64,000 bases of DNA from an uncultured Bacteroidales bacterium. GTDB taxonomy: Bacteria; Bacteroidota; Bacteroidia; Bacteroidales; UBA3824. The stretch is taken from assembly GCA_937877455.1 (NCBI GenBank), contig CALFIU010000100.1, forward strand, positions 18,320 to 82,319. Reading direction: 5' to 3'. Position 1 is the first letter of the stretch; each line of letters starts with the position of its first letter. Both the position numbers and the translations under genes were made by a program. Shown here piece by piece: positions 26,535-64,000 of the stretch. The notes below the pieces were generated by a model, which was not told where the DNA came from, searched no databases, and saw only the letters and a program-made list of their open reading frames with translations.

Positions 26535-26604
26535 CGGAAAAATCATTACAGGCACAGACAAAAAAGGTCTGTTCAACCAACACAAAAACTAAACATTTTA
26601 CGAC

Positions 26605-40672: not shown

Positions 40673-40688
40673 ACCGAAAACTTTTGTG

Positions 40689-40696
40689 CAAAATTA
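40689..40696 (-). promoter_or_regulatory. TAnnTTTG -7 box for the antisense moron
   Basis: The minus strand reads TAATTTTG. Confidence 0.4.
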
Positions 40697-40794
40697 CATT
40701 GCTTTTATCTGAATATCTAAACTTTTGCGGTCAAATTTCAGATAACGTTATTGGATTTCCAACAGAAGGTCAAGTGATTGCCTGTTTTGTGGGG

Positions 40795-40802
40795 TATCTT
40801 TG
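40795..40802 (+). promoter_or_regulatory. TAnnTTTG -7 box that would restart the tail operon
   Basis: TATCTTTG lies 17 nt upstream of the ATG at 40819. Confidence 0.4.
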
Positions 40803-40818
40803 CAAAAAATCTTTACAA

Positions 40819-41373
40819 ATGGTCACATACAACACATACGTTCAACAGATAAGTTTCGACGGCACGACCTACACAAAAGGTAGCGTTGTTGACATGCTTT
40901 CCAAGTTCAAAATAGTCAGTCAGGAGTTTCCTTTTAGGAAGAATCCGAAACCCAAAGATTTGCCTACGCGAGATTGGGCTGGTGAAGACGGTCTTGATGT
41001 CTATATCCCCGGCCAACTTCCTGTCAAGCACTATGACATGGAAGTTTCTTTCCTTTATGTAGGCACGGAGGCAAACATTCGTACCGACCTCAACAACTTC
41101 ATTGATTTCCTCTATGGCAGGGTGAAGGGCAATAACTCTGACACCGTACAGAGCGGTCGCCTTGCAATCTATAATGAACTTACGGGCATTGGACGCAAGG
41201 ACATTGTTGTTGCAGAGGTGGAAAATGAAATCTTCTACCTCACAGACAGCGACACCGATGCCGTAGCGAAATTCAAAATCAAGTTCACGGTGTATGATCC
41301 TACAACAGAGGTAACTCCCACCTACGGAACATACGACGGTCAACAACGTTGCACAGCACTAAACTTTGAATAA
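40819..41373 (+). CDS. distal tail protein (Dit-like)
   Basis: Track ORF 40516-41373 trimmed to MVTYNTYVQQISFDG. The longer form would overlap the antisense gene. Position between TMP and Tal. Confidence 0.55.
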   Translation: MVTYNTYVQQISFDGTTYTKGSVVDMLSKFKIVSQEFPFRKNPKPKDLPTRDWAGEDGLDVYIPGQLPVKHYDMEVSFLYVGTEANIRTDLNNFIDFLYGRVKGNNSDTVQSGRLAIYNELTGIGRKDIVVAEVENEIFYLTDSDTDAVAKFKIKFTVYDPTTEVTPTYGTYDGQQRCTALNFE

Positions 41374-47300: not shown

Positions 47301-50300
47301 GACAGGCATTTGATGGCTACATTACCTTCACACCAATCAGCAACCGATGGTGATGTCAGACTTCAATACTCAACAGACAATGGCAGCAATTGGAATACCC
47401 TCACAGGTTACTCCAGTGGCAAGACTATCAGCAGTTCAAGTTACAACTCTGTTGTTAGCGGTGCTGTTTTGCTCCGCATTCAGAAGTACGTTGCAGGAGA
47501 GAGCGGTGGCGAGTGGGTATTGCTCGACGAGGAGGGAGTGGAGATTACCCGTAACGGTCAGGACGGCAAAGGTGTTGAATACATCTTTATCACGAAGAAT
47601 GATTGGGATGGAACTGATGCAAACAAACCGACCATTAACGATGTGGCAAGCGAACGTCAGGTAGATAACTATTGCCCTTACACCGACGCACAACACACCG
47701 ACCAATGGACGGATGAGCCAACAGGAATAGGTATCAACCAGAAGTATGAGTTTTATGCACAGCGAAAGAAAGTCAACGGTGTCTGGCAAGCCTTCGGTGA
47801 CGTGAAACTTTGGGATAGGTATGCCTTGGATGGTGTAACCCCTTACCTCATTGACCTTTCCAATGAGCAAAGTTTCATAAATTGCGACGAAGACGGAAGT
47901 GTTTTGTCTGGAGCGACGTATGAGACGAGCAATTTGATGATATTCAAAGGCAATAGTTACGCCTTTACTGACTTCAACATACAGATTACGCCTACCAATA
48001 TCAAGTGCAACGGCAATAGTTCCGCTTTCGCACTTACAGAAAATCAGAAGACAACGGCGCAAAGTGATGGTTATTTTACTTTGACACCGAGCAATATCAG
48101 CGCAAACTCTGCCACGATTACCGTTCGTGCCATATTGAAGACCAATTCAAATATTGTCTTGGTTGCGGTGTATAAGGTGAACAAGAACATTGCAGGGCAG
48201 AATAGCGTTATCTATTCCCTGATACCAAGTCTGAATGTCATTCACAAGGACAATACAGGAACATTCCTCGACACATCTTTGGCTATTCAAGTGAAGAAAA
48301 CCGTTGGCACAACAACTTCAATCTTGAGTACCTATAAGGCAATAGCCGATGAAGGGCTGACTATTGACTACCAGAATTACGTTGGAACAACCGATGTCGT
48401 AACAAGCGGTGCTACCAGCACAAGTGCTGTCTCTGTGCTTGCATCAAACTTTGTCGGCGGAACTAATGGCAATTACGGCTTGCTGCGATTGAAAAACTCT
48501 GGAGGCACTATTGTTGACACGGAAAGAATCAATGTCGTTCTGGATGGTGATGATGGTGTGACATACGAAATCAGAACCACAGTTGACAGCGTGACCATTC
48601 CAGAAGATGCAACGACAGCGGTTCTTGCAACTATTGGAACTTTCTACAGAAAGATAGGTGGTAATGACCCGGCACTCTATTCGTGCTACGGAACTGTATT
48701 CCGCAGATACGGAACAAATTATGTGCGCATCGGTGCTTCGACGGCAAAAGGCACGCAGTATCAAATATATAGTCAAACTGTAAGTTCAGATTCCTCAAAT
48801 GCGAATTATGCCGATGCTATTGTATTCTTTATGACAGAAGAGGCATTGGGCGGTTCTGCATACGCAAACGCAGCACCTACATCTTACCTCGCAAAGAAAG
48901 AAATCTTGGTGAAGAAGTACGGCGATACAGGTCCCGAAGGCGACGATGCGATCAATTACTATCTTACAAGTAGCATCAACAGCATTATCCGAGACCAATA
49001 CGGGAACTATGCTGGAACGGCGAGACCTGTTATAACAGCATGGAAGAAAGTTGGTGACAATGCAGCAGTGCGTTTGAATGACATCACAACACCTTCTGTT
49101 GCAGAAGGCTTTACCATCAATGCCTACGAAATGGATGGTTCTACGGTAGCATACACCAATACAAGCACTACTGGTTTATTGACTTGCGCAGAGCCATATT
49201 CATACGTTGACAGGTTTGAGGTTGAGTTGGTGAAAGGCGGCAAGACATACGCTACAATGTCAATCCCTATTATCACGGAACGGCAGGGAGAAGCTGGTTC
49301 GGATGGTGTCTTCCCCCGTGATTGCGGTATGTTTGATGCGGGTATTGCCACGAACCAGACATACGGCTATGCAGGTTACATCTACAGGAAGGTAGGTGAT
49401 GTAGTGATTCGCGACATGGTGCGCTATGAGATAGGCGGTGTGATGTATGGCTTTATGGTGAAGACCAAATCGCAGAGTGATTTGATTACAGCTGCTCCGA
49501 CATCTGTAAGTGGTGATAGTAATTGGGAGTGTACGGGTATTGTCAGGACAATTATTGCCAACACTATCTTTGGAACCAATGCGAACATCGGTGGTTTCAT
49601 GGCATCTAACCAACGCCTTGTTTCCTCAAATGTCGCTTATCGAGTAGTTTATAAAGGTAGTTACAGTTCATCGACTGAATACGGAGAAGTGGTTTCATCC
49701 AACATCTATCAACGTCAGATGGTGCTTGATAACGGCGAATATTGGGTTGTGCGCGGCGGTGTAACATCATTCGTTAATCAGTCTCCATCTGAAAGCAGTG
49801 CTTATTGGAGAAAAGCTACAACCAAAGAAAATGCTGTTGAAAAGACACTGAATAGTTATGTCGATATATTGTCGTTCAGTATCGACGGAATCCTAAATGA
49901 GATTGAAATGATTGCAAACGATGACTCCACTTGGATTGTTGACAAGAATGGTGTTCAGACACTTGGATTCATCGACGGCAAACGTGTCGTGTTTGACCCT
50001 GTTTCCAAAGAGATAAACATTTACAACGACTTAGGTGTTTTGGCAACTACTTTGACAGGAGACACTTACGATGATTTAGGTGCGATTTTCGGAAACAGCA
50101 CTGGAAACTTATCACTCAACAGTTATAAGTCTGGAAGCGCACAAGTATCGAATGGCGGCTCACGAGCAATCGACAATCAAGAATACGCAACGCTGACAAT
50201 GAGTACATTTTCCACCGCGTCAGCATGTCGTCTTACATTCAATGGTACATTGTCAGCAACTGGCTCCAGAACGCAAAAGAGTATTAGCGGTAACAGTGAT

Positions 50301-52201: not shown

Positions 52202-55200
52202 ATGGCAAAGAAAGTAACGATTGACCAAGAGATTACAAGTCTCGACCAGCCTTGGGGCGGCACATACCAGAACGGGCAAGAGTGGGGCTTGAAGAAAGAA
52301 CGGGTCGAAGAGTTTCTGAAGGCGAAACTATCAGCCCATGAAACAAGTATCGCTGGCAAAGTTGCTGGCGTTATTGTGAACAACACAGAAGTTACGAAAG
52401 ACGCAAACGGCAAGGTGAATATCATTGTTCCTTCGGTTACAGCAGACGTTACCAATCCGAGTAACGCCAATGCCGCACAAGCAGGTGCAGTTGCAACGGA
52501 GATCAATGCTATCAACTCCAACCTCATTGCCGACATTCAGTTGGGCGAGACAAGTCAAGACGGCTCAATGATAGAACTAAACTTCTTCAATGCCGCAGGT
52601 GACAAACTTGACGATTTGACAGTTCTGATACCAGCAGCGCAAGAAGTCGGTGAAATCATCCAGCCTGTAATCACAACTGAACTTCTTTCAGCATCCCGTA
52701 TCAAACTTGGTGACAGCATCAGTCTCAGATGGGGCTATGACTGCCTACGAAAGTTTGAGGGTGTGAGTGAGCGCGTAAACTATCCGGCACAGACCGTAGC
52801 CGTGACAGTTAAGATAGGTACTACCACAGTCTATACTGAGACCTATGCACAAGTAGCCGTTGGAACAACAAACACTCTCACGCTTAGTCCTGAAATCATC
52901 AACCAGGCAGGTACGGTCAGCATCAGTGTCGTTGCTACTACGCCTATTGACGAAGAAATAAAGACAAGTCGCGGCTCAAAGAGTGTAACCGTCATAACGA
53001 TGGATCTTGCTACTACCTTTGACCCTGCGAGTCAGTTGGCGTTGAGCAACGGATATACCGACGGACAGACAATAGCCATCCCATATACCTATACCGTTCC
53101 AACGGGAACTACATTGAGAGTGTGGGTAGATGGTGTGTTGGACGCAACAGACAGCATCAGCGGCACAGGGCGAAACTACGTCTATCTGACAGCGAGCAAC
53201 CTAAGTGCCGGACGGCATAACGTACAGTTGATAGCCGAGAGTGCAGGTTTGTTGAGCAATGCCGTGAGCGTAGATGTACTGAAGGCAGGTGGCACAGCGG
53301 ACTATCTTGGTATTCGCATGAAGACCGATGTCAGTCAGTTGTCGAGTATGCCACTTCCATACGCCTACGGAGTTACAGCATTACCGTTGTCCGTTGCTCA
53401 GTTTGAGGAATTGACCATTGACATTGCAGCGTGGAACAACGACACATTGGCGAGTACGATTTTCATAAGCGTTGATGGTGTTGTGACCCAGACATTGACG
53501 GCAGACAGAACGTTGCAAACCATAAGCCAGCGTTTTGACACAGCGGGAAATCACACGATGGTTATAGCCTTGAACAACGACAATATTACAGCATACAGGA
53601 CATTCGGCGTTACCGTCAATGCCGCATCGGGTGTAACTGAGAGCGAAGCCGTAGGTTATCGCACAAAGTTGACTGCTACAGGGCGCAATAACGGCGAAGC
53701 CAACCCTGCTGATTGGGGTGGTATCACCACGTTCACGGGTGTTGACTGGCGAACCAACGGCTGGAACAGGGGTAGTGACGGCGTAGATACGCTGTTGCTT
53801 ACCAATGGCGCAAGGGCAAACATTGATGTCAAGCCATTCGTGCTTGATGCCAGTGACGGCGACTACTCCATCCAGAACGGAGGTATGACTCTTGAAATGG
53901 AAGTGATGGTCAGTCAGGTCATGGAGCGCGGTGCAACAGTTCTGAGCTGTCTTTGTGACAACGACGGCAACGGCTATCCGATGGGTGTCAAGATTACGAC
54001 CGAGGAGGCAGGTCTCTATTTTGGCGGTGTTGAGGAAATCACCACTGCTGAAGACCTTGTTGATGAGAACGGCAATTACATTGACTACAATGGAAACATT
54101 GTTGATGAAGCGAACAAAGTAAAGTTGAAGATTACCCGTCCTCATGGCGTTTCGATGAACATTGCCATTGACCGATGGGTTCACCTTTCATTTGTTGTTC
54201 AACCCGTGACGAATGGATATGGTCTGGCAATGCTCTTCATCAATGGTGTGTTGAGCCGTGCTAACCGCTATACAGGTTCGTTGAGACAGAACACACCTGT
54301 AGGAATCACCATTGATTCGGACAAAGCAGACGTAAGAATACGGTCGTTGCGTTACTACCGCACACCATTGAGTGCTGACGAAGTTATTGGCAACTGGATT
54401 ATCGACCGTCCAACGGCAGCTTTGATTCAGAGTGCGCACACCAACAATGCCGTCGGCGACATCAACAACACTACGGACAGTGATGGCAACATTGCCATAG
54501 ACCATGACACGTTGCTTAGTCGCGGTCGTGGTATTCTTACCATTATCCGAAGCGACGATAGCGGTTATGGACTTTCCGACCTCTTCACCTGTACGGACAA
54601 AAAGCAAAACTTCAAAGCGGACCTGGTGAAATGGGAGCCTCCACTTGATGCAAGCGGCAACCCCATCGGTGAGGGTTTTGAAGCAAGAAACGTCCGTGTC
54701 AGAATCCAAGGTACATCTTCTGTGAAGTACCCATACAAGAACTTCCGTATCTACCTCACTACACAGCAAGGTTCTGTTGCAAAAGTTCTTATCATCGGTG
54801 GCGTAGATGTAACTGAAACCGCAAAGGGCTATGCAATGCGCGGCAGCGGTAACAGCATTGAGCAAGCCGTTATCTGTGCGAAAACAGACTTTGTGGATTC
54901 TTCTTTGGTAATGAACACTGGTGGCGCACACCTGTTTAACGACATCATGCACGCTCTGCATCTTGATACGCCACCACAGGCTTACGATGCAAGAGTGAGA
55001 CAGGCTATTGACGGTCTTCCCTGCGACATCTATGCCGGAACCAATGAAAACGGCACTTTGCGATATTGCGGTCAGTTTGTCCTTAACAACGAGAAGTCGA
55101 AGTCTGGTAAGATCTTCGGCATGGAGGGCGTAAAAGACGGCAACGGAAATGAGGTTGATTTCCGCAGATACGAGAACCAAGGAACGGACGAAGAGCCAAA

Positions 55201-58200
55201 CATGGTTCTTGTAGGACCCGATACCAAGCCGTTTGCATTGGAGGCTTTGACAAACTCGTCGCCCATGACACTCTTCCAAAGTGCTGGTTCTGCCAACAGT
55301 CAGGCATTAGCAAACCAACTTGCGGCTGAATTTGACAATGGATTTGAGTTCAACCATCCAGAAGACGCTAAATGGGCGACAATCGGCACGGGTTCTTACT
55401 CTGATTGGGGCGGTGCGCAGACAGCCATCAAACGACTCTTTGGCTGGATCTATGACTGTGTGCCGTCTGCCATGCGCACTAACCCAGATTACGGCACAAC
55501 GGCTGGTTGGAGCGACGAGAGCAAAGCAAAATGGGTGTCGAGCAAGTTCAAGAGCGAGGCAAGCGACTATTTCAACGTCAACCACCTGTTGACCTATTAT
55601 CTTTTCACGGATTATTGGGCAAGCGTTGACCAGAGAGCCAAGAACATTTTGTGGCGTACATGGGATGGACTGATATGGTGGGCTACTTTCTACGACGGCG
55701 ACACAGCCATGTCAATCCGTAACGATGCCTTCATGGCTTATCTCTACAACGTCACCCGCGACACTTACGACACGGAACGCTCTAAGTACGCCTTCGAGGG
55801 TCACAATAGTTGGCTCTGGTGTCTCGTTCTCGCAAACTTCGAGGATGAGCTGAAGACTTGCGCCGCAAACTTGCGCAATCAGTTGACCACACAAGTCATG
55901 CTCAATGAGTTCAACACTGTCATGCAGGGCAACTGGAGTGAAAGGCAGTACAACAAAAGTGGTAAACTGAAGTACATCGACACCATTAACACGATGAACT
56001 ATGTCTATACTTTGACTGGTAATCGTGAGTTGCACCGCACACAGTTCTTGACCGACCGTGCAAGACTTTTAGATGCAAGGTATGGTGCAGGAAACTATAA
56101 CGGCGACGTAATCACGTTCACCGTCGTGCGCAATGCAAGCGATACGCCGTCGCACCTGACATTGAAGAGTGGCGACCTCTACTATTTCGGTTACAAACTT
56201 AACGGAATATGGTTGCAGGGACCATCGAGGGCTGCTGCTGGAGAAAGTTTGACGCTGAACTTCACCGATACGCTTGCGACCAACGACCCGCTTATGTTGG
56301 GTGGTGCAAGTTGTATCATCGAGCTTGACTTTACAGAGTTGGGCAGTCAGTTGAACGGTACGGTCAACCTCTCGCTATGCACAATGCTGTCAAAGTTAGT
56401 CATGCCTGCAACGAAAGGCGTAGCCAATGCCCCCCTAACGCTTGGCGACATAGCAAAGTTAGAGTATGTTGACATTACAGGACAAACAGCGGTTCATACT
56501 GGCACAACAGGCGTTTTCGACCTGTCAAAGCACACACGACTCACGATTTTGCTTGCAGGTGGAACAAGTTTGACGCAAATTAAACTTCCAGAAGGTTCAC
56601 CTCTTGATACTTTGGTCATGCCGTCTTCACTTCAAACTCTGACGTTGCGCTATCTGCCAAAGCTCAGACATAGCGGACTTACCTTGCAGGGAACAGCGAA
56701 CATCACTGCATTAAACTTTGCAGAATGTCCGTACCTGTCATGGCAGACGCTTATGACGATGTGTCCGAACATTGACCATGTGCGCATCGAGGGTATGTCC
56801 GGGCGTGTCCGCTCTTCAATGATACGGCCTTTCATGTCAGGCTATCGTGGTTTGACCGCACAAGGAACAGAGCAGACATATCCAGCACTTATCGGAAAAG
56901 TCCAACTCATAGACGTTGTGGACGATTTCGAGACGATGAGAAGTTTCTTTGCTCAGTGTGGACTCGAACTGGAGGCAGCACCATACTCTCAGTACATCTT
57001 CGACGATTCTGAAACTGATCCGTGTAACATCACGAATGAGGACAATCAGACTGGTTACGACTACTACGACGCTGAAAACGGCGAGACAACGGCACACTAC
57101 AATAACAATAGTTCATTGCTCAACCAGCATCCGTTGAACTATGTCGGTAGCGGTCATGTGAAACTTATCCGTGACAAGAGCCAGTTGTGTAGCGGTCGTG
57201 TCAACAACTCCACACACAAGATGAGAGTAACAAAGTTGTCGAAAAACAGCCTTACAGAGACAGCCGACGGAAACTCTTTCAATCCCACCGATCCAAACGG
57301 TGAAGGATATGACGTGTTCATGTATCTGCCACACTATTGGTACAAAGGTGTCAATGACTATAAGAACGCAAGAAAACATTTCTTCTGTTCTGCCAACACA
57401 CAATGTCCTGCAAGTACGGCAGCGAACACCATCCGTTACCAACTGTCAAACATCTTGTATGTCGCAGGAAAGGCTATCACCAACGAACTCTATTCTTCTG
57501 GTGTTTCTGTTGACGACCTTCTCACGACTGCCACAGAACTTTCAACGTACAGAGTTTCGGTAGAAGGAATGAAGCAGGTGAGATTCCCAGGAATCAATCA
57601 CAGTTACTTCTCACACGTCTTTGAAGACGAGAACGGCAACATCTTGTCAATCAACAATCTCTTGATGGCAGATGCAAGCGGCAACCCAGCAGACTTTATG
57701 AACGACGAGGGCGACTATGACTTCAGAACCGTTCCAGAGGGTGCAAAGTATTTCTATTTCTGTTGCAGAAACGCATCAGCCGCAAAGTCTGGTGTCGAAG
57801 TCATTGTCACTGACTCTTCAGAAGTTGAAGCCATTGAGCCGGATTGGGTGGAGCATAAGCCAGAGCTTATCGGTGTCTATCAGGGATATGCCGCTGGCAT
57901 CACCACTGGTGGAACACCCACAAGCGGACTTCGCTCTATCAGTGGAGAGACCGTATCGAGAGGTAGCGGAACATCTACACAGGTCGCTGCATGGACTTAC
58001 GACTCGGACGGCAATCCTACGGCACTCAATACCAGTACCAGAATCAACGGTACTGCACAGGACTTCTTCAACCTTGCAAGTGTGCGCACTGCACAGACGG
58101 AGGTACAGAACGGAGAATACAGCACCGTACCCTACGAGACCTCAAAAGACATGGCGAACCTGCTTATGGCATGGTTTGGTACACGCGACATTGAGACCAT

Positions 58201-58762
58201 CGTCGGACGTGGTTCAAGTGCTGGTGAAACGACTGGTGTCAGAAACAGCATTGCTTTCGGCGACTCCGATTATCCTGCACAGAACCAGCATAACAAGATG
58301 TGGGGTCTGGAATGTTGGACGGCTTCAACCTACGAATGGATGGATAAGGGCTGTCTCAACACGCCTACGTTTGCCGCCTTCAAGAAAAACAAACGTAACG
58401 CACCGACTGGAAGTAGCATTGATTACTACTACAATATCGTGCAACAGGACGGTAACGAGCGTAGGGTGAAGGTTGCTACCGCTAATCAGGCATCCAATGT
58501 CGCCCGTGTCCGTTTCGGCAGATATTGTGACATTGTTGTAAGTTCATACGCTGGTGACAGCAACTATGCAACAGGATATGCCGCATATCAATCATCAAAT
58601 GGTTCTACTGGTCGCGTCCTTGGTCGCTCGAGCTACAATGCGCTTGCGAGCGCGGGGGTCGCTTTCTCGTACACGAATAGCGCCTCCTCGAACTCGTACA
58701 CGAACGTCGGCGGTCGGCTCTGCTTCTTCGGAGAGATTGAGAACGAAGAAGACCTACTCTGA
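52202..58762 (+). CDS. 2186-aa tail fibre / receptor-binding protein; DGR target 1
   Basis: Domains read by eye, in order:
- ConA/LamG-like (WVHLSFVV...VRIRSLRYYRTPLSADEV)
- CotH-like (IQGTSSVKYPYKNFRIYL, AKTDFVDSSLVMNTGGAHLFNDIM, NILWRTWDGLIWWATFYDGDTAMSIRN)
- LRR-like tract
- C-terminal lectin-fold-type VR (GRVLGRSSYNALASAGVAFSYTNSASSNSYTNVGGRLCFFG). Confidence 0.85.
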   Translation: MAKKVTIDQEITSLDQPWGGTYQNGQEWGLKKERVEEFLKAKLSAHETSIAGKVAGVIVNNTEVTKDANGKVNIIVPSVTADVTNPSNANAAQAGAVATEINAINSNLIADIQLGETSQDGSMIELNFFNAAGDKLDDLTVLIPAAQEVGEIIQPVITTELLSASRIKLGDSISLRWGYDCLRKFEGVSERVNYPAQTVAVTVKIGTTTVYTETYAQVAVGTTNTLTLSPEIINQAGTVSISVVATTPIDEEIKTSRGSKSVTVITMDLATTFDPASQLALSNGYTDGQTIAIPYTYTVPTGTTLRVWVDGVLDATDSISGTGRNYVYLTASNLSAGRHNVQLIAESAGLLSNAVSVDVLKAGGTADYLGIRMKTDVSQLSSMPLPYAYGVTALPLSVAQFEELTIDIAAWNNDTLASTIFISVDGVVTQTLTADRTLQTISQRFDTAGNHTMVIALNNDNITAYRTFGVTVNAASGVTESEAVGYRTKLTATGRNNGEANPADWGGITTFTGVDWRTNGWNRGSDGVDTLLLTNGARANIDVKPFVLDASDGDYSIQNGGMTLEMEVMVSQVMERGATVLSCLCDNDGNGYPMGVKITTEEAGLYFGGVEEITTAEDLVDENGNYIDYNGNIVDEANKVKLKITRPHGVSMNIAIDRWVHLSFVVQPVTNGYGLAMLFINGVLSRANRYTGSLRQNTPVGITIDSDKADVRIRSLRYYRTPLSADEVIGNWIIDRPTAALIQSAHTNNAVGDINNTTDSDGNIAIDHDTLLSRGRGILTIIRSDDSGYGLSDLFTCTDKKQNFKADLVKWEPPLDASGNPIGEGFEARNVRVRIQGTSSVKYPYKNFRIYLTTQQGSVAKVLIIGGVDVTETAKGYAMRGSGNSIEQAVICAKTDFVDSSLVMNTGGAHLFNDIMHALHLDTPPQAYDARVRQAIDGLPCDIYAGTNENGTLRYCGQFVLNNEKSKSGKIFGMEGVKDGNGNEVDFRRYENQGTDEEPNMVLVGPDTKPFALEALTNSSPMTLFQSAGSANSQALANQLAAEFDNGFEFNHPEDAKWATIGTGSYSDWGGAQTAIKRLFGWIYDCVPSAMRTNPDYGTTAGWSDESKAKWVSSKFKSEASDYFNVNHLLTYYLFTDYWASVDQRAKNILWRTWDGLIWWATFYDGDTAMSIRNDAFMAYLYNVTRDTYDTERSKYAFEGHNSWLWCLVLANFEDELKTCAANLRNQLTTQVMLNEFNTVMQGNWSERQYNKSGKLKYIDTINTMNYVYTLTGNRELHRTQFLTDRARLLDARYGAGNYNGDVITFTVVRNASDTPSHLTLKSGDLYYFGYKLNGIWLQGPSRAAAGESLTLNFTDTLATNDPLMLGGASCIIELDFTELGSQLNGTVNLSLCTMLSKLVMPATKGVANAPLTLGDIAKLEYVDITGQTAVHTGTTGVFDLSKHTRLTILLAGGTSLTQIKLPEGSPLDTLVMPSSLQTLTLRYLPKLRHSGLTLQGTANITALNFAECPYLSWQTLMTMCPNIDHVRIEGMSGRVRSSMIRPFMSGYRGLTAQGTEQTYPALIGKVQLIDVVDDFETMRSFFAQCGLELEAAPYSQYIFDDSETDPCNITNEDNQTGYDYYDAENGETTAHYNNNSSLLNQHPLNYVGSGHVKLIRDKSQLCSGRVNNSTHKMRVTKLSKNSLTETADGNSFNPTDPNGEGYDVFMYLPHYWYKGVNDYKNARKHFFCSANTQCPASTAANTIRYQLSNILYVAGKAITNELYSSGVSVDDLLTTATELSTYRVSVEGMKQVRFPGINHSYFSHVFEDENGNILSINNLLMADASGNPADFMNDEGDYDFRTVPEGAKYFYFCCRNASAAKSGVEVIVTDSSEVEAIEPDWVEHKPELIGVYQGYAAGITTGGTPTSGLRSISGETVSRGSGTSTQVAAWTYDSDGNPTALNTSTRINGTAQDFFNLASVRTAQTEVQNGEYSTVPYETSKDMANLLMAWFGTRDIETIVGRGSSAGETTGVRNSIAFGDSDYPAQNQHNKMWGLECWTASTYEWMDKGCLNTPTFAAFKKNKRNAPTGSSIDYYYNIVQQDGNERRVKVATANQASNVARVRFGRYCDIVVSSYAGDSNYATGYAAYQSSNGSTGRVLGRSSYNALASAGVAFSYTNSASSNSYTNVGGRLCFFGEIENEEDLL
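58609..58730 (+). repeat. DGR variable repeat 1 (VR1)
   Basis: 122 nt aligned without gaps to the TR. 14 mismatches, all at TR adenines. Confidence 0.9.
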
Positions 58763-58872
58763 AAAGCGTAGAGCGGAGGCGGCTTGAAAAAGTCGCCCCT
58801 GCAAAACGACAAACGAACAAACGTAAAACGAAATAAGAAAAACGTAATGAGAAAAAAGGTAGAAAATCCCAT

Positions 58873-58994
58873 TGGTCGCGTCCTTGGTCGCTCGAACAAC
58901 AATGCGAATGCGAACGCGGGGGTCGCTTACTCGAACACGAATAACGCCTCCTCGAACTCGAACACGAACAACGGCGGTCGGCTCTGCTAAATCG
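58873..58994 (+). repeat. DGR template repeat (TR)
   Basis: Non-coding copy between the target gene and the RT. 27 adenines lie in the core, grouped as 12 AAY codons plus TAC and 2 ACG. The flanks are adenine-free. Confidence 0.9.
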
Positions 58995-59260
58995 AAACTC
59001 TGCTTCTGGGATAATGCTCACGGGTTGGGCGACATTCAGAAGATAATCGTTGCTACGGCGAACACTTACGGGATAAGTGATGGCTGACAACGAGGGATTT
59101 GAGCCTCGGCAACAGCAATACTTTCCAACCCGCAAAGAATTGGAAAGAATTGGAAAGCCGGAACATCACAGGGTGTGGTCGATTATGGTCAAGTAGTTTC
59201 TGCAAAGATGTCGAAAGCCCTATGACCACAAGAAACGAAGAAGAAAATAAATATCGACAA

Positions 59261-60571
59261 ATGTCAAAGAGATATGGCTTCCTGATACCGAGAATAGTTG
59301 AACGCTCTAACATGGATAGGGCGTTTGATGAGGTCGTAGATCAACTTCCAGAGCCTCGCAGAACCCACTATCGCAAAAGGCGAGAAGAGATTCTTGAGCG
59401 TACTACGAAGGCGATTTCCGACGGAAGTTTCCGTGTCAACCACTATCGAGAAATGTGGGTTACGGACGGTTCCAAGATACGCAAAGTGCAAAGTCCGTGC
59501 GTAGAACACAGAATCGGTTGTAATGCCATCATGCGCATTGTGGAAGATGTGCTGTACCCAAGTGTCATTAAAACTTCTGCCGCAAGTATTCCTGGACGCG
59601 GTATGCACAGGCTGTTTGTAAAGATGCGGCATGATATTGAGAATGACCGTGAGGGTACGGCATACTTCTACAAGTGCGATATCAGAAAGTTCTTTGAAAG
59701 CATTGACCAAGACCTGATGTGGGAATTTGTCAAGGATAAAATCAAAGATCCGATACTTTTGCCGATACTCCACAACTTTGTGACGATGATGGAGAAAGGA
59801 CTCTCCATCGGTTTGCGCTCGTCACAATGTTATGGTAATATCTTCCTTAGCGGCATTGACCATTACTTCAAGGACGTTCTTGGTGTAAGGTACTACTACC
59901 GCTATTGTGACGATATTGTAATTCTTGCATCGAGTAAGCGCAAACTTTGGCTGCTCCGTGACATCATGCACGAACAGGCTGCTGAGCTTAAACTTGAAGT
60001 CAAGCCGAATGAATGTGTCAGACCCATTGAGGAGGGTATAGACTTTCTCGGCTTTGTATATGACGGAAAGAAAGGAAAACTGCGCAAGCGCACCAAGCAG
60101 AAGGCCGCAAGGAAACTTCACAAGGTCAAGAGCCGTAAACGCAGACAGCAGATCATAGGAAGTCTGAAAGGCATGGCGAAATGGGGTGACTGCAAACACT
60201 TGTATAAAACTTTAACAGGTAAGAATATGGAATCATTTAGCGAAAAAGTTAAGCAGATGAAAAAAAACGGTGTTGAATACACTGGTAAGGATGGTAAGCG
60301 TATGCTGACGGGTCAAGAGGTATCTCTGAGGACGTTGGTTAATATGCACATAGTAGTTCTGGACTTTGAGCCAGACGTTCCCACAAAGAACGGCAATCGT
60401 TATGTCGTTCAATTCCAGAGAGACGATGGCACTATTGGTAAGTATCTTACGAATGATTCTGAACAAAAGTTCTGGTTGGATGAGTTTCGTAAGGCGAACA
60501 ACATTCCGTTTGAGTGCAAGATTACACCTCAGTATTTCGGACAGGGCAAGGTACGTTATCAATTCACTTAA
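59261..60571 (+). CDS. DGR reverse transcriptase with a C-terminal extension of about 114 aa
   Basis: YYYRYCDDIVIL (YxDD), the DGR-type motif SIGLRSSQ ([ILV]GxxxSQ), and an N-terminus MSKRYGFLIPRI typical of DGR RTs. The track start at 59099 is a TTG inside the spacer. An alternative ATG lies at 59222. Confidence 0.9.
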   Translation: MSKRYGFLIPRIVERSNMDRAFDEVVDQLPEPRRTHYRKRREEILERTTKAISDGSFRVNHYREMWVTDGSKIRKVQSPCVEHRIGCNAIMRIVEDVLYPSVIKTSAASIPGRGMHRLFVKMRHDIENDREGTAYFYKCDIRKFFESIDQDLMWEFVKDKIKDPILLPILHNFVTMMEKGLSIGLRSSQCYGNIFLSGIDHYFKDVLGVRYYYRYCDDIVILASSKRKLWLLRDIMHEQAAELKLEVKPNECVRPIEEGIDFLGFVYDGKKGKLRKRTKQKAARKLHKVKSRKRRQQIIGSLKGMAKWGDCKHLYKTLTGKNMESFSEKVKQMKKNGVEYTGKDGKRMLTGQEVSLRTLVNMHIVVLDFEPDVPTKNGNRYVVQFQRDDGTIGKYLTNDSEQKFWLDEFRKANNIPFECKITPQYFGQGKVRYQFT

Positions 60572-60584
60572 AACACTGTGCGTT

Positions 60585-61085
60585 ATGGAAAAAGTTTATG
60601 GTACTGAAGAAAGGCATGACAGCCTTATCATTCACAAGACAAAGAGAGCCGTCTTAATCTATGGCTATGGTGAAGAGAACGGCATGGGGTATGATTTCCG
60701 ACATACTTTTGACCATGAGCCTACGGCAATGGAAGTGTTGGAGGTTATCACAAACCATGTGAACGAACTTACGGATCAAAAGATTCTGTCCGGCTATCAG
60801 TGGAATGGCTACAATGTGTGGCTATCGACTGAAAATCAGTTCAACTTCAAGGCAGCATACGATGTTGCGGTACAGACAGGAGGAGCAACGCTACCAATCA
60901 AGTTCAAACTCGGAGAGACTGAAGGCGAACCGAACTACTTTGTCTTTGAAGACATGGCTACATTCACAGACTTCTACACAAATGCTCTCGCCTACATCAT
61001 AGAAGTTCTTAATGTAGGCTGGGTCGAAAAGGACTCCGCGAAAGAATGGGTGCAAACATTAGGACTTAAAAACGGCGAAGCATGA
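60585..61085 (+). CDS. hypothetical protein
   Basis: Track ORF trimmed to MEKVYGTEERHD (ATG 60585). Acidic, and not Avd-like in composition. Confidence 0.55.
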   Translation: MEKVYGTEERHDSLIIHKTKRAVLIYGYGEENGMGYDFRHTFDHEPTAMEVLEVITNHVNELTDQKILSGYQWNGYNVWLSTENQFNFKAAYDVAVQTGGATLPIKFKLGETEGEPNYFVFEDMATFTDFYTNALAYIIEVLNVGWVEKDSAKEWVQTLGLKNGEA

Positions 61086-61241
61086 AAACTTATCATACAC
61101 CGAACATTGCCTATATGAGCATAGGAAGTGACCCGCTACTTGATAGTATGTCGGGGCTTCCATTGCGAGGTGACAGCATTACAGACCCGACATTTGAATG
61201 TTCTGGTGACAACGATTCTCAACTTAGTAACTCTGTTTGGA

Positions 61242-61721
61242 ATGACGATTATGAATAGCCTTGTATTTATAGCAATGTTTGCCATTGTCGCCTATGTTGT
61301 GGCCATGGTAATAAAAAATAAGGAAATACCCGAAAGCATTTCTTCGACGGTGTTCAATCTTGACAAGAAATGGAAGTGGGTGTTTTCCGCTGTGATGTGG
61401 ATAGTTGGCTTTCTCCTTATGCCACCTCTGATGGAAAAGGTGTCTGATTCGACACGGTTCATTGCTTTCTTCATGGTTGCAGGAATACTTTTCGTCGGAG
61501 CATCGCCCTTGGTTGCAAAGGAAAAGAACACTCTTCACTATGTGTGCGCTGCCGTTGCAGGAATAGCATCACAGTTGTTGGTAGCCCTTAACCAACCGCT
61601 GTTGCTACTGATATGGTTCTTGTATATCGGCTATACTCTCGCAGCAAAGGATGGCAGTAGAAACTTTTTCTGGGTGGAAGTTTCGTGTATGCTGTCTGTC
61701 TTTGTTTATTGTTTAACGTAA
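61242..61721 (+). CDS. multi-pass membrane protein, part of the lysis-cassette neighbourhood
   Basis: Track ORF trimmed to MTIMNSLVF. Four to five hydrophobic segments. Confidence 0.55.
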   Translation: MTIMNSLVFIAMFAIVAYVVAMVIKNKEIPESISSTVFNLDKKWKWVFSAVMWIVGFLLMPPLMEKVSDSTRFIAFFMVAGILFVGASPLVAKEKNTLHYVCAAVAGIASQLLVALNQPLLLLIWFLYIGYTLAAKDGSRNFFWVEVSCMLSVFVYCLT

Positions 61722-61737
61722 AAACTTTTTTAATGGT

Positions 61738-62277
61738 ATGAAATTAGACAACACTATCACACAGACAACTTCTGGTCTCTTCACTCCTGTAGCCATCGGG
61801 TTCATCCAGAATAGCATTCAGATGATGATACCCTGGCTTATTGTTATGTTTGTCGTTATCCTCACAGACCTCATATCTGGCATAAGGAAGTCCATCAAAC
61901 TCGGTGTGGAAGTTTCGCCATCTACAGCCTTTAGGGAAACTATGGGTAAGATGGTGACTTACTTCAGTTGGGTTATCATGGTGTGCCTTTTAGATGTTGC
62001 GATGGGTGGAGAAACCACCGCCGCAAAATGGGGTTGCTTGCTTGTCATAGCGATTGAGGGTGGAAGCATAGTCAGCAATATACTAAAGCCATACGGTGTG
62101 GAGATTTCTCTGAAAGGGATTTTGCGTGTAATCTTCATGCGTTCGCCTCTGAATGCGTCGCAGGAAGAGGCTGAACAGGTCATACGAGACAAGAAGATTG
62201 AGCAAATTCGTAAGAAAGAACATGAAAAGTGGAACCACAAAAGCAAAAAAGGACATGGTACTAAAGAAAGGAAGTAG
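61738..62277 (+). CDS. holin (phage_holin_4-like)
   Basis: TM segments. ILTDLISGIRKS and VIAIEGGSIVSNILKPYG resemble the D..TG and E..SI.EN holin motifs. It lies directly upstream of the endolysin. Confidence 0.65.
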   Translation: MKLDNTITQTTSGLFTPVAIGFIQNSIQMMIPWLIVMFVVILTDLISGIRKSIKLGVEVSPSTAFRETMGKMVTYFSWVIMVCLLDVAMGGETTAAKWGCLLVIAIEGGSIVSNILKPYGVEISLKGILRVIFMRSPLNASQEEAEQVIRDKKIEQIRKKEHEKWNHKSKKGHGTKERK

Positions 62278-62938
62278 AGGCGATGAGGTCAGGGCTTTGC
62301 AACAAGCCCTGCACCTCTATGTTGATGGTATATTCGGTATTCTAACCGAGGAAGCCGTCAAGGAATATCAGAAGGCGCATGGTCTTGTTGCCGATGGAAT
62401 AGTTGGCGATAAGACGTGGGCGAAACTCTTTCCATCTGGAAAGACATCTGTCACGTTGCAAAAAAGCAAGAGGGTGATCAATGAGATTATCATACATTGT
62501 ACTGCTACTCCAGAAGGTCAGGATATGACTGTTGAACAGATTACGGCAAGTCACAAGAAACGTGGTTTTACCACTATCGGCTATCACTACGTTATCTATC
62601 GTGACGGATCTATCCATAAGGGTAGGGATGTCAATGTCAGTGGAGCCCATTGCACAAATCACAATACTCACTCAATCGGAGTAAGTTATGTTGGCGGTCT
62701 TGAGAATATCCCAGGTGTCGCCTACAACAAACTTCCGATAAAGGACACTCGCACAGCAAAGCAAAAAGCGGCTTTGCTGAAACTATTGAAAGACTTGAAG
62801 GTTCTTTATCCGAAAGCAAAGATTATCGGACATCGTGATACTTCGCCAGACAAGAACGGAAACGGAATCATAGAGCCTTTTGAGTGGATAAAGGGTTGTC
62901 CTTGTTTCGACGCAAAGACGGAGTACAAAAACATCTGA
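62222..62938 (+). CDS. endolysin: N-acetylmuramoyl-L-alanine amidase (Amidase_2/PGRP) with an N-terminal PG_binding_1 domain
   Basis: GSRGDEVRALQQAL...VDGIFGILTEEAVKEYQKAHGLVADGIVGDKTWAKL, then IIIHCTAT...IGYHYVIYRDGSIHKGRD...GAHCTNHNTHSIGVSYVGG. An alternative start is at 62255. Confidence 0.9.
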   Translation: MKSGTTKAKKDMVLKKGSRGDEVRALQQALHLYVDGIFGILTEEAVKEYQKAHGLVADGIVGDKTWAKLFPSGKTSVTLQKSKRVINEIIIHCTATPEGQDMTVEQITASHKKRGFTTIGYHYVIYRDGSIHKGRDVNVSGAHCTNHNTHSIGVSYVGGLENIPGVAYNKLPIKDTRTAKQKAALLKLLKDLKVLYPKAKIIGHRDTSPDKNGNGIIEPFEWIKGCPCFDAKTEYKNI

Positions 62939-62941
62939 GTT

Positions 62942-63502
62942 ATGGAAAAGAAAATCTTATCTTACATCGTTCTTTCGCTGCTTATCTTGCTTGGCGTTTC
63001 TTTGTTCTGGAACTACAAGCAGTACAGAGATATGAACGATCGTCCGAAAGTTGTGAGAGATAGCGTAACCGTTATTCAGTACGTAGAGAAGAAAGACTCT
63101 ATGCCCAATGCGAAGACGGAAACTGTTGTCGGTAGTATAAAAGTTCCGATACCAAAGAAGAAAAAAGATTTGGAACTTCCACCTACCGTTCAAGATTCTT
63201 TGCCAAATCTTTCACATACCGTTCCTAACGAAGAAATGGAAGATAGTCTTGAATTGGAGATTACGCAGAAAGTCTATTCTGATAGTACATATACGGCTTA
63301 TGTAAGCGGTTATAGACCGAACTTGGATAGTATCTTTGTAAGGCAGAAAGTTATTACAAATACGATTCACGAAACAATAACCATCGAAAAAAAGAAGTTC
63401 CGGCGATGGAATGTCGGAATCATTGGCGGTTATGGGTATGGCTTTCAATCAAAGACTTTTGAACCGTTTATCGGTGTTGGCGTGTCCGTAAGTCTGTTTT
63501 AA
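62942..63502 (+). CDS. membrane-anchored protein after the endolysin; possible spanin-like lysis accessory
   Basis: N-terminal TM helix ILSYIVLSLLILLGVSLFW. Gly/aromatic-rich C-terminal tail. Position only. Confidence 0.35.
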   Translation: MEKKILSYIVLSLLILLGVSLFWNYKQYRDMNDRPKVVRDSVTVIQYVEKKDSMPNAKTETVVGSIKVPIPKKKKDLELPPTVQDSLPNLSHTVPNEEMEDSLELEITQKVYSDSTYTAYVSGYRPNLDSIFVRQKVITNTIHETITIEKKKFRRWNVGIIGGYGYGFQSKTFEPFIGVGVSVSLF

Positions 63503-63517
63503 TCTTATTTGCAGAGA

Positions 63518-63558
63518 AAATCCTCCGACGGTGTAATTGTTTGACCGTCAGAGGATTT
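63518..63558. terminator. hairpin terminator between convergent genes
   Basis: AAATCCTCCGACGG ... CCGTCAGAGGATTT, 13 of 14 bp paired, followed by CTTTCTTC. Confidence 0.6.
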
Positions 63559-63610
63559 CTTTCTTCGCGGGAAATCAAGGGAAATTATAGGGGAATTTCC
63601 CCTATTTGAT

Positions 63611-64000
63611 TCAGTCTTCTTCTTTGAGGAAAGCAAAGAACTGACCCCACAATTTTGCGAAACGCTCTCCGCACTGCGCAGCCAGCTCTCGCGTTTTGAA
63701 GCAGAGCCGACCGCCGCTGCACGCGCTCGAGAACGAGGAGGCGTAATACGCGTACGAGCAAGCGACCCCCGCGTACGCATTCGCAACGTAGTACGAGCGA
63801 CCAAGGACGCGACTTCTTTCTTCTTCATCCATCCTGTCTATCTCTTCTTTGGTATAGAGCAAGAACCAAGGATAGTAGCGGTATTCGTCTTCTGTGAATA
63901 ACGGGAACTGGTCAAGTTCATCAACCGTCAGTTCGTTGTATGCAGCACAGACGATACGCAGTTTCATCATGGCTTGCACATCAAGAGGCAGTTCGCCGAT
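63611..64000 (-). CDS. DGR target 2; the 5' end may run off the window
   Basis: The frame is open to position 64000. In-window starts are GTG 63979 and ATG 63970. The C-terminal region RVLGRSYYVANAYAGVACSYAYYASSFSSACSGGRLCF is encoded by VR2. Confidence 0.7.
   Translation of the reverse strand: MGELPLDVQAMMKLRIVCAAYNELTVDELDQFPLFTEDEYRYYPWFLLYTKEEIDRMDEEERSRVLGRSYYVANAYAGVACSYAYYASSFSSACSGGRLCFKTRELAAQCGERFAKLWGQFFAFLKEED
63698..63813 (-). repeat. DGR variable repeat 2 (VR2)
   Basis: The reverse complement aligns without gaps to TR 58875-58990. 19 mismatches (17 in the core), all at TR adenines. Confidence 0.9.

What the first reader, a model, noticed from the sequence alone, without database searches (positions are those of the whole stretch)
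63611..64000. Second DGR target on the opposite strand about 4.7 kb from the TR, beyond the lysis cassette
The reverse complement of 63698-63813 matches the same TR. There are 19 mismatches, all at TR adenines, and 17 of the 27 core adenines are changed.

VR1 and VR2 share the reading frame relative to the TR, but their protein contexts differ. VR2 sits in a small or partial ORF and has about 30 extra C-terminal residues. The homology starts exactly at RVLGRS and ends at GGRLCF.

A single TR/RT therefore appears to diversify both a giant tail fibre and an unrelated inverted gene. Holin, endolysin and two membrane protein genes lie between the RT and that second gene. The function of the second target is unknown.
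Basis: partly seen in the sequence, partly recalled or inferred. Interest (0 to 1): 0.8.

Follow-up and report, generated by a model that had tools for sequence, protein, structure and literature searches.

The report
Second, active DGR target in phage
A gut-type phage uses one mutagenic reverse-transcriptase cassette to keep rewriting two genes, its giant tail fibre and a small gene on the opposite strand in its early-gene block; this layout is real and active, but it has already been described in related Bacteroides phages.

Summary
The reverse complement of 63700-63813 matches the template repeat (TR, 58875-58988) over 114 nt. There are 17 mismatches, all at TR adenines (17 of 27; p about 1e-13), in the same reading frame as VR1 (58611-58724).

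VR2 is not a fossil. A 97%-identical phage contig (L072) differs from the window at only 26 positions across 58500-64000: 11 in VR1 and 11 in VR2, all at TR-adenine sites, and 4 elsewhere. The TR is identical.

The ORF is cut by the window end. It is intact in L072, where it encodes 199 aa (P0001). P0001 is identical to the window's 129 visible residues except at 8 adenine-bearing VR codons.

The protein belongs to a very large unnamed family (PHROG 11581, no Pfam). In four phage lineages its gene sits among early, recombination or counter-defence genes.

It is homologous (37-39% identity) to the distal second target of LoVEphage/Quimbyvirus. There, one TR, a tail-fibre VR1 and an opposite-strand non-structural VR2 were published in 2021 and again in 2025. 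This is therefore a new member of a known kind.

Still open: the fold was not recognisably C-type lectin here, and the function is unknown. My inference is an intracellular hypervariable binder.

The parts
63611..64000 (-). The 3' 390 nt (129 codons plus stop) of the second DGR target gene. The full gene is 199 aa in the near-identical contig L072; its N-terminal 70 codons lie beyond the window edge.
   Evidence: Open frame to the window edge. Intact 199-aa orthologue P0001, identical outside the adenine-bearing VR codons. PHROG 11581, E=1.9e-33.
63700..63813 (-). VR2, the second variable repeat. The 114-nt core is given; it becomes 63698-63813 if the two further adenine-site mismatches are included.
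   Evidence: 17 of 17 mismatches to the TR fall at adenines. 11 of 11 differences to L072 fall at TR-adenine sites. Hypervariable at AAY codons in 120 homologues.
63700..63716 (-). A-free GC-rich 3' end of VR2 (CGGCGGTCGGCTCTGCT), identical in TR, VR1 and VR2. It is IMH-like; the VR-specific TTC follows it.
   Evidence: The same pattern appears in the L007-type and LoVEphage lineages.
58875..58988 (+). Template repeat (TR) with 27 adenines, arranged mostly as AAY codons.
   Evidence: Identical in L072.
58611..58724 (+). VR1, at the C-terminus of the giant tail-fibre-like protein.
   Evidence: 11 of 11 mismatches at TR adenines. 11 adenine-site differences to L072.
52202..58762 (+). First target gene: a 2186-aa tail-fibre-like protein (its C-terminus matches phrog_14959).
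59261..60571 (+). DGR reverse transcriptase. The ORF is open from 59099; the 436-aa gene call in L072 implies a start near 59261. It contains IGLRSSQ and YCDD.
   Evidence: RVT_1, E=1.3e-13. phrog_1423, E=2.8e-89. 41% identity to the Hankyphage p00 DGR RT; matches also include Bordetella phages.
60579..61085 (+). 168-aa ORF directly after the RT, of unknown function (phrog_19239). It is not recognisably Avd.
61738..63502 (+). Lysis cassette separating the RT from VR2: holin (61738-62277), amidase endolysin with a PG-binding domain (about 62255-62938) and a DUF6808 membrane protein (62942-63502).
   Evidence: The same genes are called in L072.
63518..63605 (.). Two terminator-like hairpins in the 108-nt convergent intergenic spacer: 63518-63558 with 15-nt arms, and the palindrome at 63587-63605 just after the VR2-gene stop.

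Best explanation
Shown: VR2 is a genuine and currently active second variable repeat of this phage's single diversity-generating retroelement.

Established DGR mechanism, inferred to apply here: the TR (58875-58988) is transcribed, and the adjacent error-prone RT copies it into cDNA with random misincorporation opposite adenines. The cDNA then replaces either VR1 (the 3' end of the 2186-aa tail-fibre gene) or VR2 (codons about 133-170 of a 199-aa gene on the opposite strand, 4.7 kb away). Homing is guided by the shared A-free GC-rich 3' end plus a VR-specific flank.

All TR adenines sit at codon positions 1 and 2 of AAY, TAC or ACG codons in the frame shared by both targets. Mutagenesis therefore randomises about 15 residues in each protein and can never create a stop codon.

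The two VRs are rewritten independently, with different positions and bases changed.

The second target is the last gene of the minus-strand early (non-structural) operon. It belongs to a very large unnamed family of small proteins from Bacteroidota phages (PHROG 11581) and is homologous to the distal second target of LoVEphage/Quimbyvirus.

Inferred, not shown: because family members in four phage lineages sit among early, recombination, replication or counter-defence genes and lack a signal peptide, the protein is most likely a cytoplasmic hypervariable binding protein used in phage-host conflict, not a virion receptor-binding protein.
For: TR/VR2 anatomy and the adenine-only mismatches.

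Activity:
- Window against L072: 11 VR1 and 11 VR2 differences, all at TR adenines, against 4 elsewhere in 5.3 kb, with the TR identical.
- P0001 equals the window protein at all 114 non-adenine codons and differs at 8 of the 15 adenine-bearing codons.
- Entropy is 2.85 bits at AAY codons against 0.34 and 0.50 elsewhere.
- In the L007 lineage, L007 and L015 have 0 differences in the 400 nt upstream and 100 nt downstream of VR2, but 15 in VR2 and 20 in VR1.

Concerted evolution: at the 23-29 non-adenine positions where the TRs of three lineages differ, every VR2 follows its own TR, 100% of the time.

Independence: only 2 of the 11+11 inter-genome sites coincide, and only 4 positions are shared within the genome.

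RT.

Intact 199-aa ORF and operon context.

Same remote inverted layout in relatives:
- IMG/VR relatives L002, L007, L015, L021, L022, L028 and L035.
- LoVEphage, with TR and VR2 15.3 kb apart.

Homology to the LoVEphage protein QVQ57199.

Early-gene context in LoVEphage, phage Versailles and Elizabethkingia prophages.

Published precedent: PMC8008677 and PMC12629997.
Against: - No Avd-like accessory gene was found. However, 29% of DGRs lack one (PMC5758913).
- No significant hairpin follows VR2 (z = +0.83), whereas VR1 is followed by an 8-bp stem.
- The C-type lectin fold expected of DGR targets was not recovered. In the AF2 model the VR has pLDDT below 50, and Foldseek finds no PDB match.
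- The functional inference rests only on gene neighbourhood. In this particular phage the gene lies at the very boundary with the late/lysis operon.
- One record annotates a homologue as 'tail protein'. This probably reflects the VR segment alone.
- No read-level data were available, so within-population variation was not seen directly.
Confidence: 0.88

Rival explanations
1. The VR2 protein is a virion component: a small Mtd-like receptor-binding or fibre-decorating protein that happens to be encoded outside the structural module. In that case both DGR targets would serve host recognition.
For: - VR2 carries the same approximately 38-residue variable segment as the tail fibre.
- In this phage the gene lies only 108 nt from the end of the late/lysis operon.
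- A homologue in phage Versailles is annotated 'tail protein'.
- Small single-domain second targets of other two-target phage DGRs have been proposed to act like Mtd (PMC10743442).
Against: - The gene is on the opposite strand, as the last gene of an operon that includes RNase T, a PurA-like enzyme, a PP-binding protein and a radical SAM protein.
- In LoVEphage, Versailles and Elizabethkingia prophages the homologue is embedded among recombination, replication or methyltransferase genes, far from tail genes.
- Outside the VR there is no similarity to the tail-fibre domain.
- The 'tail protein' label comes from HHpred against PHROGs, where the only cross-match between the two PHROGs is the VR segment.
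Confidence: 0.22
2. VR2 is a fossil or accidental target: a one-off mis-homing or old duplication that is no longer diversified.
For: - The homology to the TR starts and ends exactly at the TR boundaries.
- No hairpin follows VR2.
- The scaffold is unrelated to that of VR1.
Against: - VR2 differs at 11 adenine sites between genomes that differ at 4 sites in the surrounding 5.3 kb.
- Adenine-site hypervariability is seen across 120 homologues.
- VR2 tracks its own lineage's TR at every non-adenine difference in three lineages.
- The arrangement is conserved in many phages.
Confidence: 0.03
3. The VR1/VR2/TR similarity reflects ordinary duplication, recombination or gene conversion between coding repeats, without reverse transcription.
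For: There are three copies of a 114-nt repeat within 5.3 kb.
Against: - 28 of 28 mismatches to the TR are at TR adenines (p about 1e-13 for VR2).
- The TR copy is invariant between genomes while both VRs change.
- An RT gene sits 270 nt downstream of the TR.
Confidence: 0.02

Closest known systems
Quimbyvirus / Bacteroides phage LoVEphage dual-target DGR (Benler et al. 2021, PMC8008677; second distal VRs also in Nature 2025, PMC12629997)
   Same: - One TR and RT.
- VR1 at the 3' end of a tail-fibre gene immediately upstream of the TR.
- VR2 in a protein of about 195 aa on the opposite strand, beyond the lysis cassette, in the non-structural module.
- The second-target proteins are homologous: 37-39% identity over residues 50-192, E down to 1e-16.
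- The portal proteins are 41.5% identical.
- The VR ends in the same way, with an A-free GC-rich stretch followed by a VR-specific TT where the TR has A.
   Different: - TR-VR2 distance is 4.7 kb here, against 15.3 kb.
- The RT is a single intact ORF here, whereas Quimbyvirus is reported to need two frameshifts.
- The genome is at least 112 kb (L072 contig) against 71-75 kb.
- The tail fibre is 2186 aa against about 440 aa.
- VR2's neighbours are PurA-like, PP-binding and radical SAM genes rather than methyltransferases and RtcB.
- There is no nucleotide-level similarity.
Bordetella phage BPP-1 DGR (mtd-avd-TR-brt), the experimentally defined prototype
   Same: - Adenine-specific TR-to-VR information transfer.
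- The VR lies in the 3' part of the target.
- A GC-rich 3' element is shared by TR and VR.
- AAY codon design.
- RT downstream of the TR.
   Different: - Two targets in opposite orientation.
- No Avd detected.
- No hairpin after VR2.
- 29 conserved residues follow VR2.
- The second scaffold is not recognisably a C-type lectin.
Hankyphage (Bacteroides phage p00) DGR
   Same: It has the closest annotated RT, at 41% identity over 95% of the protein. Both are DGRs of Bacteroidota gut phages that target tail proteins.
   Different: I found no report of a second distal target in the papers read. It is a different phage type, about 42 kb in size.
Two-target phage DGRs with tentaclins (nd4/nd12 phages; Baykov et al. 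2023, PMC10743442)
   Same: One TR serves two proteins of different topology that share only the variable segment (compare).
   Different: Those targets (tentaclin and DUF6273) are different families, were modelled as C-type lectin domains, and are proposed receptor binders.
Non-adjacent or multiple DGR targets in general (Treponema, Legionella; Wu et al. 2018, PMC5758913)
   Same: 45 of 372 DGRs have non-adjacent targets, and phage-associated ones keep them within the prophage. Architecture A (TR-RT with no accessory gene) makes up 29% of DGRs.
   Different: Those are mostly cellular surface or lipoprotein targets with recognised C-type lectin/FGE domains.

Membership tests
Diversity-generating retroelement (DGR) | Reverse transcriptase of the DGR type encoded next to the TR | tested here: met
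   RVT_1, E=1.3e-13. phrog_1423 'reverse transcriptase', E=2.8e-89. 41% identity to the Hankyphage DGR RT, and matches to Bordetella phages. The sequence shows IGLRSSQ and YCDD. That IGxxxSQ is DGR-typical comes from my own knowledge and was not checked here.
Diversity-generating retroelement (DGR) | TR/VR pair whose differences are confined to TR adenines | tested here: met
   VR2: 17 of 17 mismatches at adenines. VR1: 11 of 11. p = 1.1e-13 and 2e-8 respectively.
Diversity-generating retroelement (DGR) | VR lies in-frame in the 3' part of an ORF, with the adenines at codon positions 1 and 2 | tested here: met
   Both VRs are in phase. TR adenines are at position 1 (14) and position 2 (13), with none at position 3. 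The ORF is intact in L072.
Diversity-generating retroelement (DGR) | IMH-like 3' element in the VR that differs from the IMH* of the TR | tested here: met
   The sequence-level element is present: a 17-nt A-free GC-rich end is identical in TR, VR1 and VR2, and both VRs then read TTC where the TR reads AAA. The pattern repeats in two other lineages. Whether it functions could not be tested.
Diversity-generating retroelement (DGR) | GC-rich inverted repeat (cruciform) downstream of the VR | tested here: not met
   VR1 is followed by an 8-bp stem (z = -1.15). VR2's downstream region folds no better than shuffles (z = +0.83). The feature is not universal among DGRs.
Diversity-generating retroelement (DGR) | Accessory protein (Avd, HRDC or similar) | tested here: not met
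   No Avd or four-helix-bundle hit in Pfam or NCBIfam for ORFs around the cassette. This fits Architecture A (TR-RT with no accessory gene, 29% of DGRs; PMC5758913).
Diversity-generating retroelement (DGR) | Variation at the VR between or within populations, restricted to adenine sites, with an invariant TR | tested here: met
   These compare genomes; read-level variation was not testable.
Quimbyvirus/LoVEphage-type dual-target DGR | Second VR distal to the RT cassette, on the opposite strand, in the non-structural module | tested here: met
   The LoVEphage layout was verified, and its published description was read.
Quimbyvirus/LoVEphage-type dual-target DGR | Second target protein homologous to the LoVEphage 194-aa protein (QVQ57199) | tested here: met
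   tblastn: 37-39% identity, 72% coverage, E from 1e-16 to 4e-12. Shared motifs are shown in alignment A2.
Quimbyvirus/LoVEphage-type dual-target DGR | Phage belongs to the same genus or family (Quimbyviridae) | tested here: inconclusive
   The portal is 41.5% identical to LoVEphage's and is the best annotated hit. However, there is no DNA similarity and the genome is much larger. It is a distant relative at most; no TerL phylogeny was made.
Quimbyvirus/LoVEphage-type dual-target DGR | RT split over three frames (programmed frameshifts) | tested here: not met
   A single 436-490-aa ORF.
C-type lectin-fold DGR target | Variable segment displayed on a C-type lectin/FGE-like fold | tested here: inconclusive
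   - No Pfam hit even at E<=10.
- No PDB sequence hit with the family profile.
- AF2 with a 117-sequence alignment: pLDDT 78, but the VR (140-166) is below 50.
- Foldseek against PDB: best E = 1.5.
- BFVD returns only uncharacterised gut-phage proteins.
- Benler et al. state that the Quimbyvirus homologue contains a C-type lectin domain. I could not reproduce that.
C-type lectin-fold DGR target | VR at the extreme C-terminus of the domain | tested here: not met
   29 residues follow the VR. They form a confidently predicted, family-wide conserved helix, consensus TRELAEYAGxQF.
PHROG 11581 (unknown function) | Significant full-length match to the profile | tested here: met
   E=1.9e-33, residues 48-195 against profile positions 42-194 of 200.

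The most novel reading that the evidence does not exclude
The second target may not be a C-type lectin at all. It may represent a third DGR-compatible scaffold: a helical core whose variable segment is bracketed by YRYYPWF and GSRLCFK, followed by a conserved C-terminal helix.

More than 10,000 Bacteroidota phage and prophage proteins would then use this scaffold as an early-expressed, cytoplasmic, antibody-like binder, for example against host defence or takeover targets.

Because VR1 and VR2 are conserved in convergent orientation in three lineages, the pair would also be a natural test of the 2026 finding that DGR homing favours targets co-directional with replication (PMC12875486). Either forks converge between the two targets, or the two targets are tuned to different rates.
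Probability: 0.2. Interest if true: 0.75.

Novelty: new member of a known kind. Interest (0 to 1): 0.4.

Why it matters
This is a clean natural example of one template diversifying two unrelated proteins. It has unusually direct comparative proof that both targets are live.

It also links the published distal second VR of Quimbyvirus/LoVEphage to a huge unnamed protein family that is a DGR target across Bacteroidota phages. In Flavobacteriia prophages this family is the primary target, with its own adjacent TR and RT, and its gene consistently sits among early genes.

That points to a use of phage DGRs beyond receptor switching, probably intracellular phage-host conflict.

Cultivable relatives exist (BI-TP1, PV4-TP1) in which this can be tested. 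The conserved inverted orientation of the two targets bears on the newly reported dependence of retrohoming on replication direction.

Tried and rejected
- Megablast of 61000-64000 against GenBank phages found no match.
- An exact 36-mer from 63900-63940 found no match in IMG/VR. The contig was instead extended through protein-level relatives.
- Pfam, NCBIfam and PADLOC gave nothing for the VR2 protein.
- A profile search against PDB sequences found only noise, E >= 0.69. A PDB sequence search with the tail-fibre C-terminus found nothing.
- Two AF2 runs were made. The first used 77 sequences and gave pLDDT 71.6. The second added the short Flavobacteriia subfamily, giving 117 sequences and pLDDT 78.0. 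The VR stayed below 50 in both. Foldseek against PDB gave no hit either time.
- Hairpin search downstream of VR2: not significant.
- GC skew as a proxy for replication direction. Cumulative skew peaks at about 63.6 kb, exactly between the two targets, but this coincides with the switch of coding strand. It therefore cannot be attributed to replication.
- I asked whether the PurA-like gene in the VR2 operon of L072 is a PurZ (a marker of Z-genome phages). PDB hits are generic PurA at E = 7e-19, so this is unresolved.
- The alternative-frame ORFs over the VR (63505-63828, 107 aa; 63585-63761, 58 aa) were rejected as artefacts of GC-rich repeat sequence. Family conservation and the codon placement of the adenines support only the 199-aa frame.

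Full report
**1. The observation**

The repeat finder returns a direct pair, 58609-58724 / 58873-58988, which is VR1 and the TR. It also returns two inverted pairs that link both of these to 63698/63700-63813.

Aligned in register, the 114-nt core of the reverse complement of 63700-63813 differs from the TR at 17 positions. All 17 are TR adenines: 17 of the 27 core adenines, substituted by T x10 and G x7. The chance that 17 random mismatches all fall on the 27 adenines of 114 positions is 1.1e-13.

VR1 has 11 mismatches, also all at adenines. Only 4 positions are changed in both VRs.

Both VRs are read in the same phase relative to the TR. In that phase the TR adenines occupy codon positions 1 (14 adenines) and 2 (13 adenines) and never position 3. 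The TR encodes RVLGRS NNNANAN AGVAYSNTNNASSNSNTNN GGRLC, and mutagenesis of its AAY, TAC and ACG codons cannot create a stop codon.

No third copy exists in the window, or in the 10 kb beyond it in a near-identical contig.

**2. The ORF**

The frame 63611-64000(-) is open to the edge of the window.

A protein search returned 358 relatives, each 195-218 aa long. The best is P0001 (199 aa), encoded on a 111.8-kb ENA contig (L072) that is 97% identical to the window over 57.8-64 kb.

P0001 is identical to the window's 129 residues at all 114 codons that lack a TR adenine. It differs at 8 of the 15 adenine-bearing codons. The gene is therefore intact, and the window simply lacks its first 70 codons.

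It is the last gene of a long minus-strand operon that includes DUF8224, RNase T, a PurA-like enzyme, a PP-binding protein and a radical SAM protein. That operon converges on the plus-strand lysis cassette. Two terminator-like hairpins lie in the 108-nt spacer between them.

**3. Is VR2 live?**

Between window 58500-64000 and L072 there are 26 differences: 11 in VR1, 11 in VR2 and 4 elsewhere. The TR is identical. All 22 VR differences map to TR adenines, and only 2 of the 22 fall at the same TR position in both VRs.

Across 120 close homologues, Shannon entropy is 2.85 bits at the 12 codons that are AAY in the TR. It is 0.34 at the other VR codons and 0.50 outside the VR.

A second lineage behaves the same way (IMG/VR loci L007, L015, L021, L028, L035; about 49% protein identity). 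L007 and L015 have no differences in the 400 nt upstream or the 100 nt downstream of VR2. They have 15 differences in VR2, 20 in VR1 and 1 in the TR.

The TRs of the window lineage, the L007 lineage and LoVEphage differ from one another at 23-29 non-adenine positions. At every one of these positions each VR2 carries the base of its own TR. This is what repeated copying from the cognate TR predicts. The fossil-target reading is therefore rejected.

**4. Homing signals**

The last 17 nt of the repeat (CGGCGGTCGGCTCTGCT) contain no adenine and are identical in TR, VR1 and VR2. Both VRs then read TTC where the TR reads AAA. The L007 lineage (GCC|TTCTC against GCC|AACTA) and LoVEphage (GCC|TTGC against GCC|ATAC) show the same arrangement. 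This is the sequence pattern of an IMH/IMH* pair; whether it functions could not be tested.

VR1 is followed by an 8-bp stem. VR2 has no hairpin better than shuffled controls.

No Avd-like gene was found. This corresponds to the accessory-free TR-RT architecture that makes up 29% of surveyed DGRs (PMC5758913).

The RT matches RVT_1 and phrog_1423, contains IGLRSSQ and YCDD, and is 41% identical to the Hankyphage DGR RT.

**5. What the second target is**

The protein has no Pfam, NCBIfam or PADLOC match. It does match PHROG 11581, of unknown function (E=1.9e-33).

Profile searches recover more than 4,400 proteins of 170-260 aa, mostly from gut metagenomes. They also recover more than 6,800 proteins of about 150 aa, many from Flavobacteriia genomes such as Elizabethkingia, Chryseobacterium, Myroides and Apibacter. 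All are labelled hypothetical.

The family shares this set of motifs: ERIKTFEDA ... AYxKLxxIxxALNEGWxPxF/W ... YRYYPWF ... [variable segment] ... GSRLCFKTRELAEYAGxQF.

In 71 IMG/VR loci, two arrangements appear:
- The closer relatives show the remote inverted layout, with the TR 5-10 kb away or beyond the fetched flank.
- The distant short relatives are tandem targets with an adenine-mismatched TR immediately downstream.

Gene context is consistently non-structural:
- Methyltransferases and RtcB in LoVEphage.
- SbcC, a recombination protein, NinB and a replisome organiser in phage Versailles.
- YqaJ, the RT, YopX and NinG in Elizabethkingia prophages.

A profile-profile comparison of this family with the tail-fibre C-terminal domains aligns only the 42 residues of the variable segment. 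The two scaffolds are therefore unrelated outside what the TR supplies.

**6. Fold**

AF2 with 117 diverse family members gives pLDDT 78 and pTM 0.67. The model has the following parts:
- A confident helical core at residues 49-101.
- Short strands at YRYYPWF and RLCFK.
- A confident C-terminal helix pair at 174-193.
- The variable segment (140-166), which stays below pLDDT 50.

Foldseek finds nothing in the PDB (best E = 1.5). In BFVD it finds only uncharacterised gut-phage proteins.

The conserved 29-residue helix after the VR is atypical for such targets.

**7. Comparison with what is known**

tblastn against GenBank phages finds the protein at 37-39% identity in LoVEphage, BI-TP1 and PV4-TP1. 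The portal protein's best annotated relatives are the same phages, at 41.5% identity.

In LoVEphage I verified the same anatomy:
- VR2 lies in a 194-aa hypothetical protein on one strand.
- The TR and VR1 lie 15.3 kb away on the other strand. VR1 is in a 'tail collar fiber' gene, next to an RT.

Benler et al. [quoted passage not shown] The Nature 2025 temperate-phage study cites that work for LoVEphage. It reports four prophage species with a second distal VR near counter-defence genes. Two-target phage DGRs with unrelated scaffolds are also described by Baykov et al. 2023.

The finding is thus a new member of a known kind, in a larger and only distantly related phage. Here the RT is intact and the spacing is shorter.

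**8. Mechanism and open points**

The DGR part is well supported. One TR/RT rewrites two targets independently (confidence about 0.9).

The functional part is inference from neighbourhood. I read the protein as an early, cytoplasmic, hypervariable binder involved in phage-host conflict. The main rival is a virion-associated receptor binder (about 0.2).

A recent reconstitution study found that retrohoming is 7.6- to 44-fold more efficient when the target is co-directional with replication (PMC12875486). Here the two targets are convergent, and they are conserved that way in three lineages.

The cumulative GC skew peaks exactly between them, at about 63.6 kb. This coincides with the switch of coding strand, so it cannot be read as a replication terminus.

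**9. Verdict**

Novelty is modest, and I score interest at 0.4.

Two things remain worth following:
- The uncharacterised, very large family of non-structural DGR targets, whose fold is unresolved.
- The inverted-pair geometry of the two targets.

Noticed in passing
window 63503-63610: The 108-nt spacer between the convergent lysis operon and the VR2 gene holds two terminator-like hairpins. One has 15-nt arms at 63518-63532 / 63544-63558 and is followed by a T-rich run. The other is a perfect 9-nt palindrome, ATAGGGGAA/TTCCCCTAT, at 63587-63605, immediately after the VR2-gene stop.
   Followed up: partly
window 33050-40006, 41376-51164, 52202-58762 (+): Three giant ORFs (2318, 3262 and 2186 aa) lie close together on the + strand, with only one listed ORF of at least 250 aa (40516-41373, 285 aa) among them. 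They fill about 23 kb of the structural module, and only the last carries a VR. The first two were not analysed.
   Followed up: no
window 23661-26585 (-): A 974-aa ORF combines a large-terminase region (residues 473-750, phrog_979) with an N-terminal DnaC/helicase-like P-loop region (54-250, phrog_50). This is an unusually long or fused TerL.
   Followed up: no
L072 6896-9419 (about 2.7-5 kb beyond the window's right edge in window orientation): The operon that ends in the VR2 gene encodes a divergent adenylosuccinate-synthetase-like protein (388 aa; best PDB PurA hit E=7e-19), a PP-binding carrier protein and a radical SAM enzyme. This may be a nucleotide or DNA modification pathway. Whether the PurA-like enzyme is a PurZ was not resolved.
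   Followed up: partly
window 60579-61085 (+) and RT residues 395-490: The DGR has no recognisable Avd. The RT carries a C-terminal extension matching phrog_19665, and it is followed by a 168-aa ORF (phrog_19239, E=9.6e-41). Both are of unknown function and are candidates for a substitute accessory factor.
   Followed up: partly
L077 10001-12013 (Elizabethkingia bruuniana CP067018) and IMG/VR loci L048-L071: Short (about 150 aa) members of the same family are the primary DGR targets in Flavobacteriia prophages and environmental viral contigs. They often occur as 2-3 tandem paralogues, with the TR and a 317-aa RT immediately downstream. These cassettes sit in the early region rather than near tail genes.
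   Followed up: partly
L078 6872-7453 (Bacteroides phage Versailles ON453897, WAK79127.1): A family member located between NinB and replisome-organiser genes is annotated 'tail protein' (HHpred against PHROGs). This is probably a mis-annotation driven by the variable segment it shares with tail-fibre PHROG 14959.
   Followed up: no
window 58725-58760 (+): Immediately after VR1 there is an 8-bp inverted repeat, CTTCTTCG...CGAAGAAG, with a 13-nt loop, inside the last codons of the tail-fibre gene. It resembles the post-VR hairpin of BPP-1 but is not statistically distinguishable from shuffled sequence (z = -1.15).
   Followed up: partly
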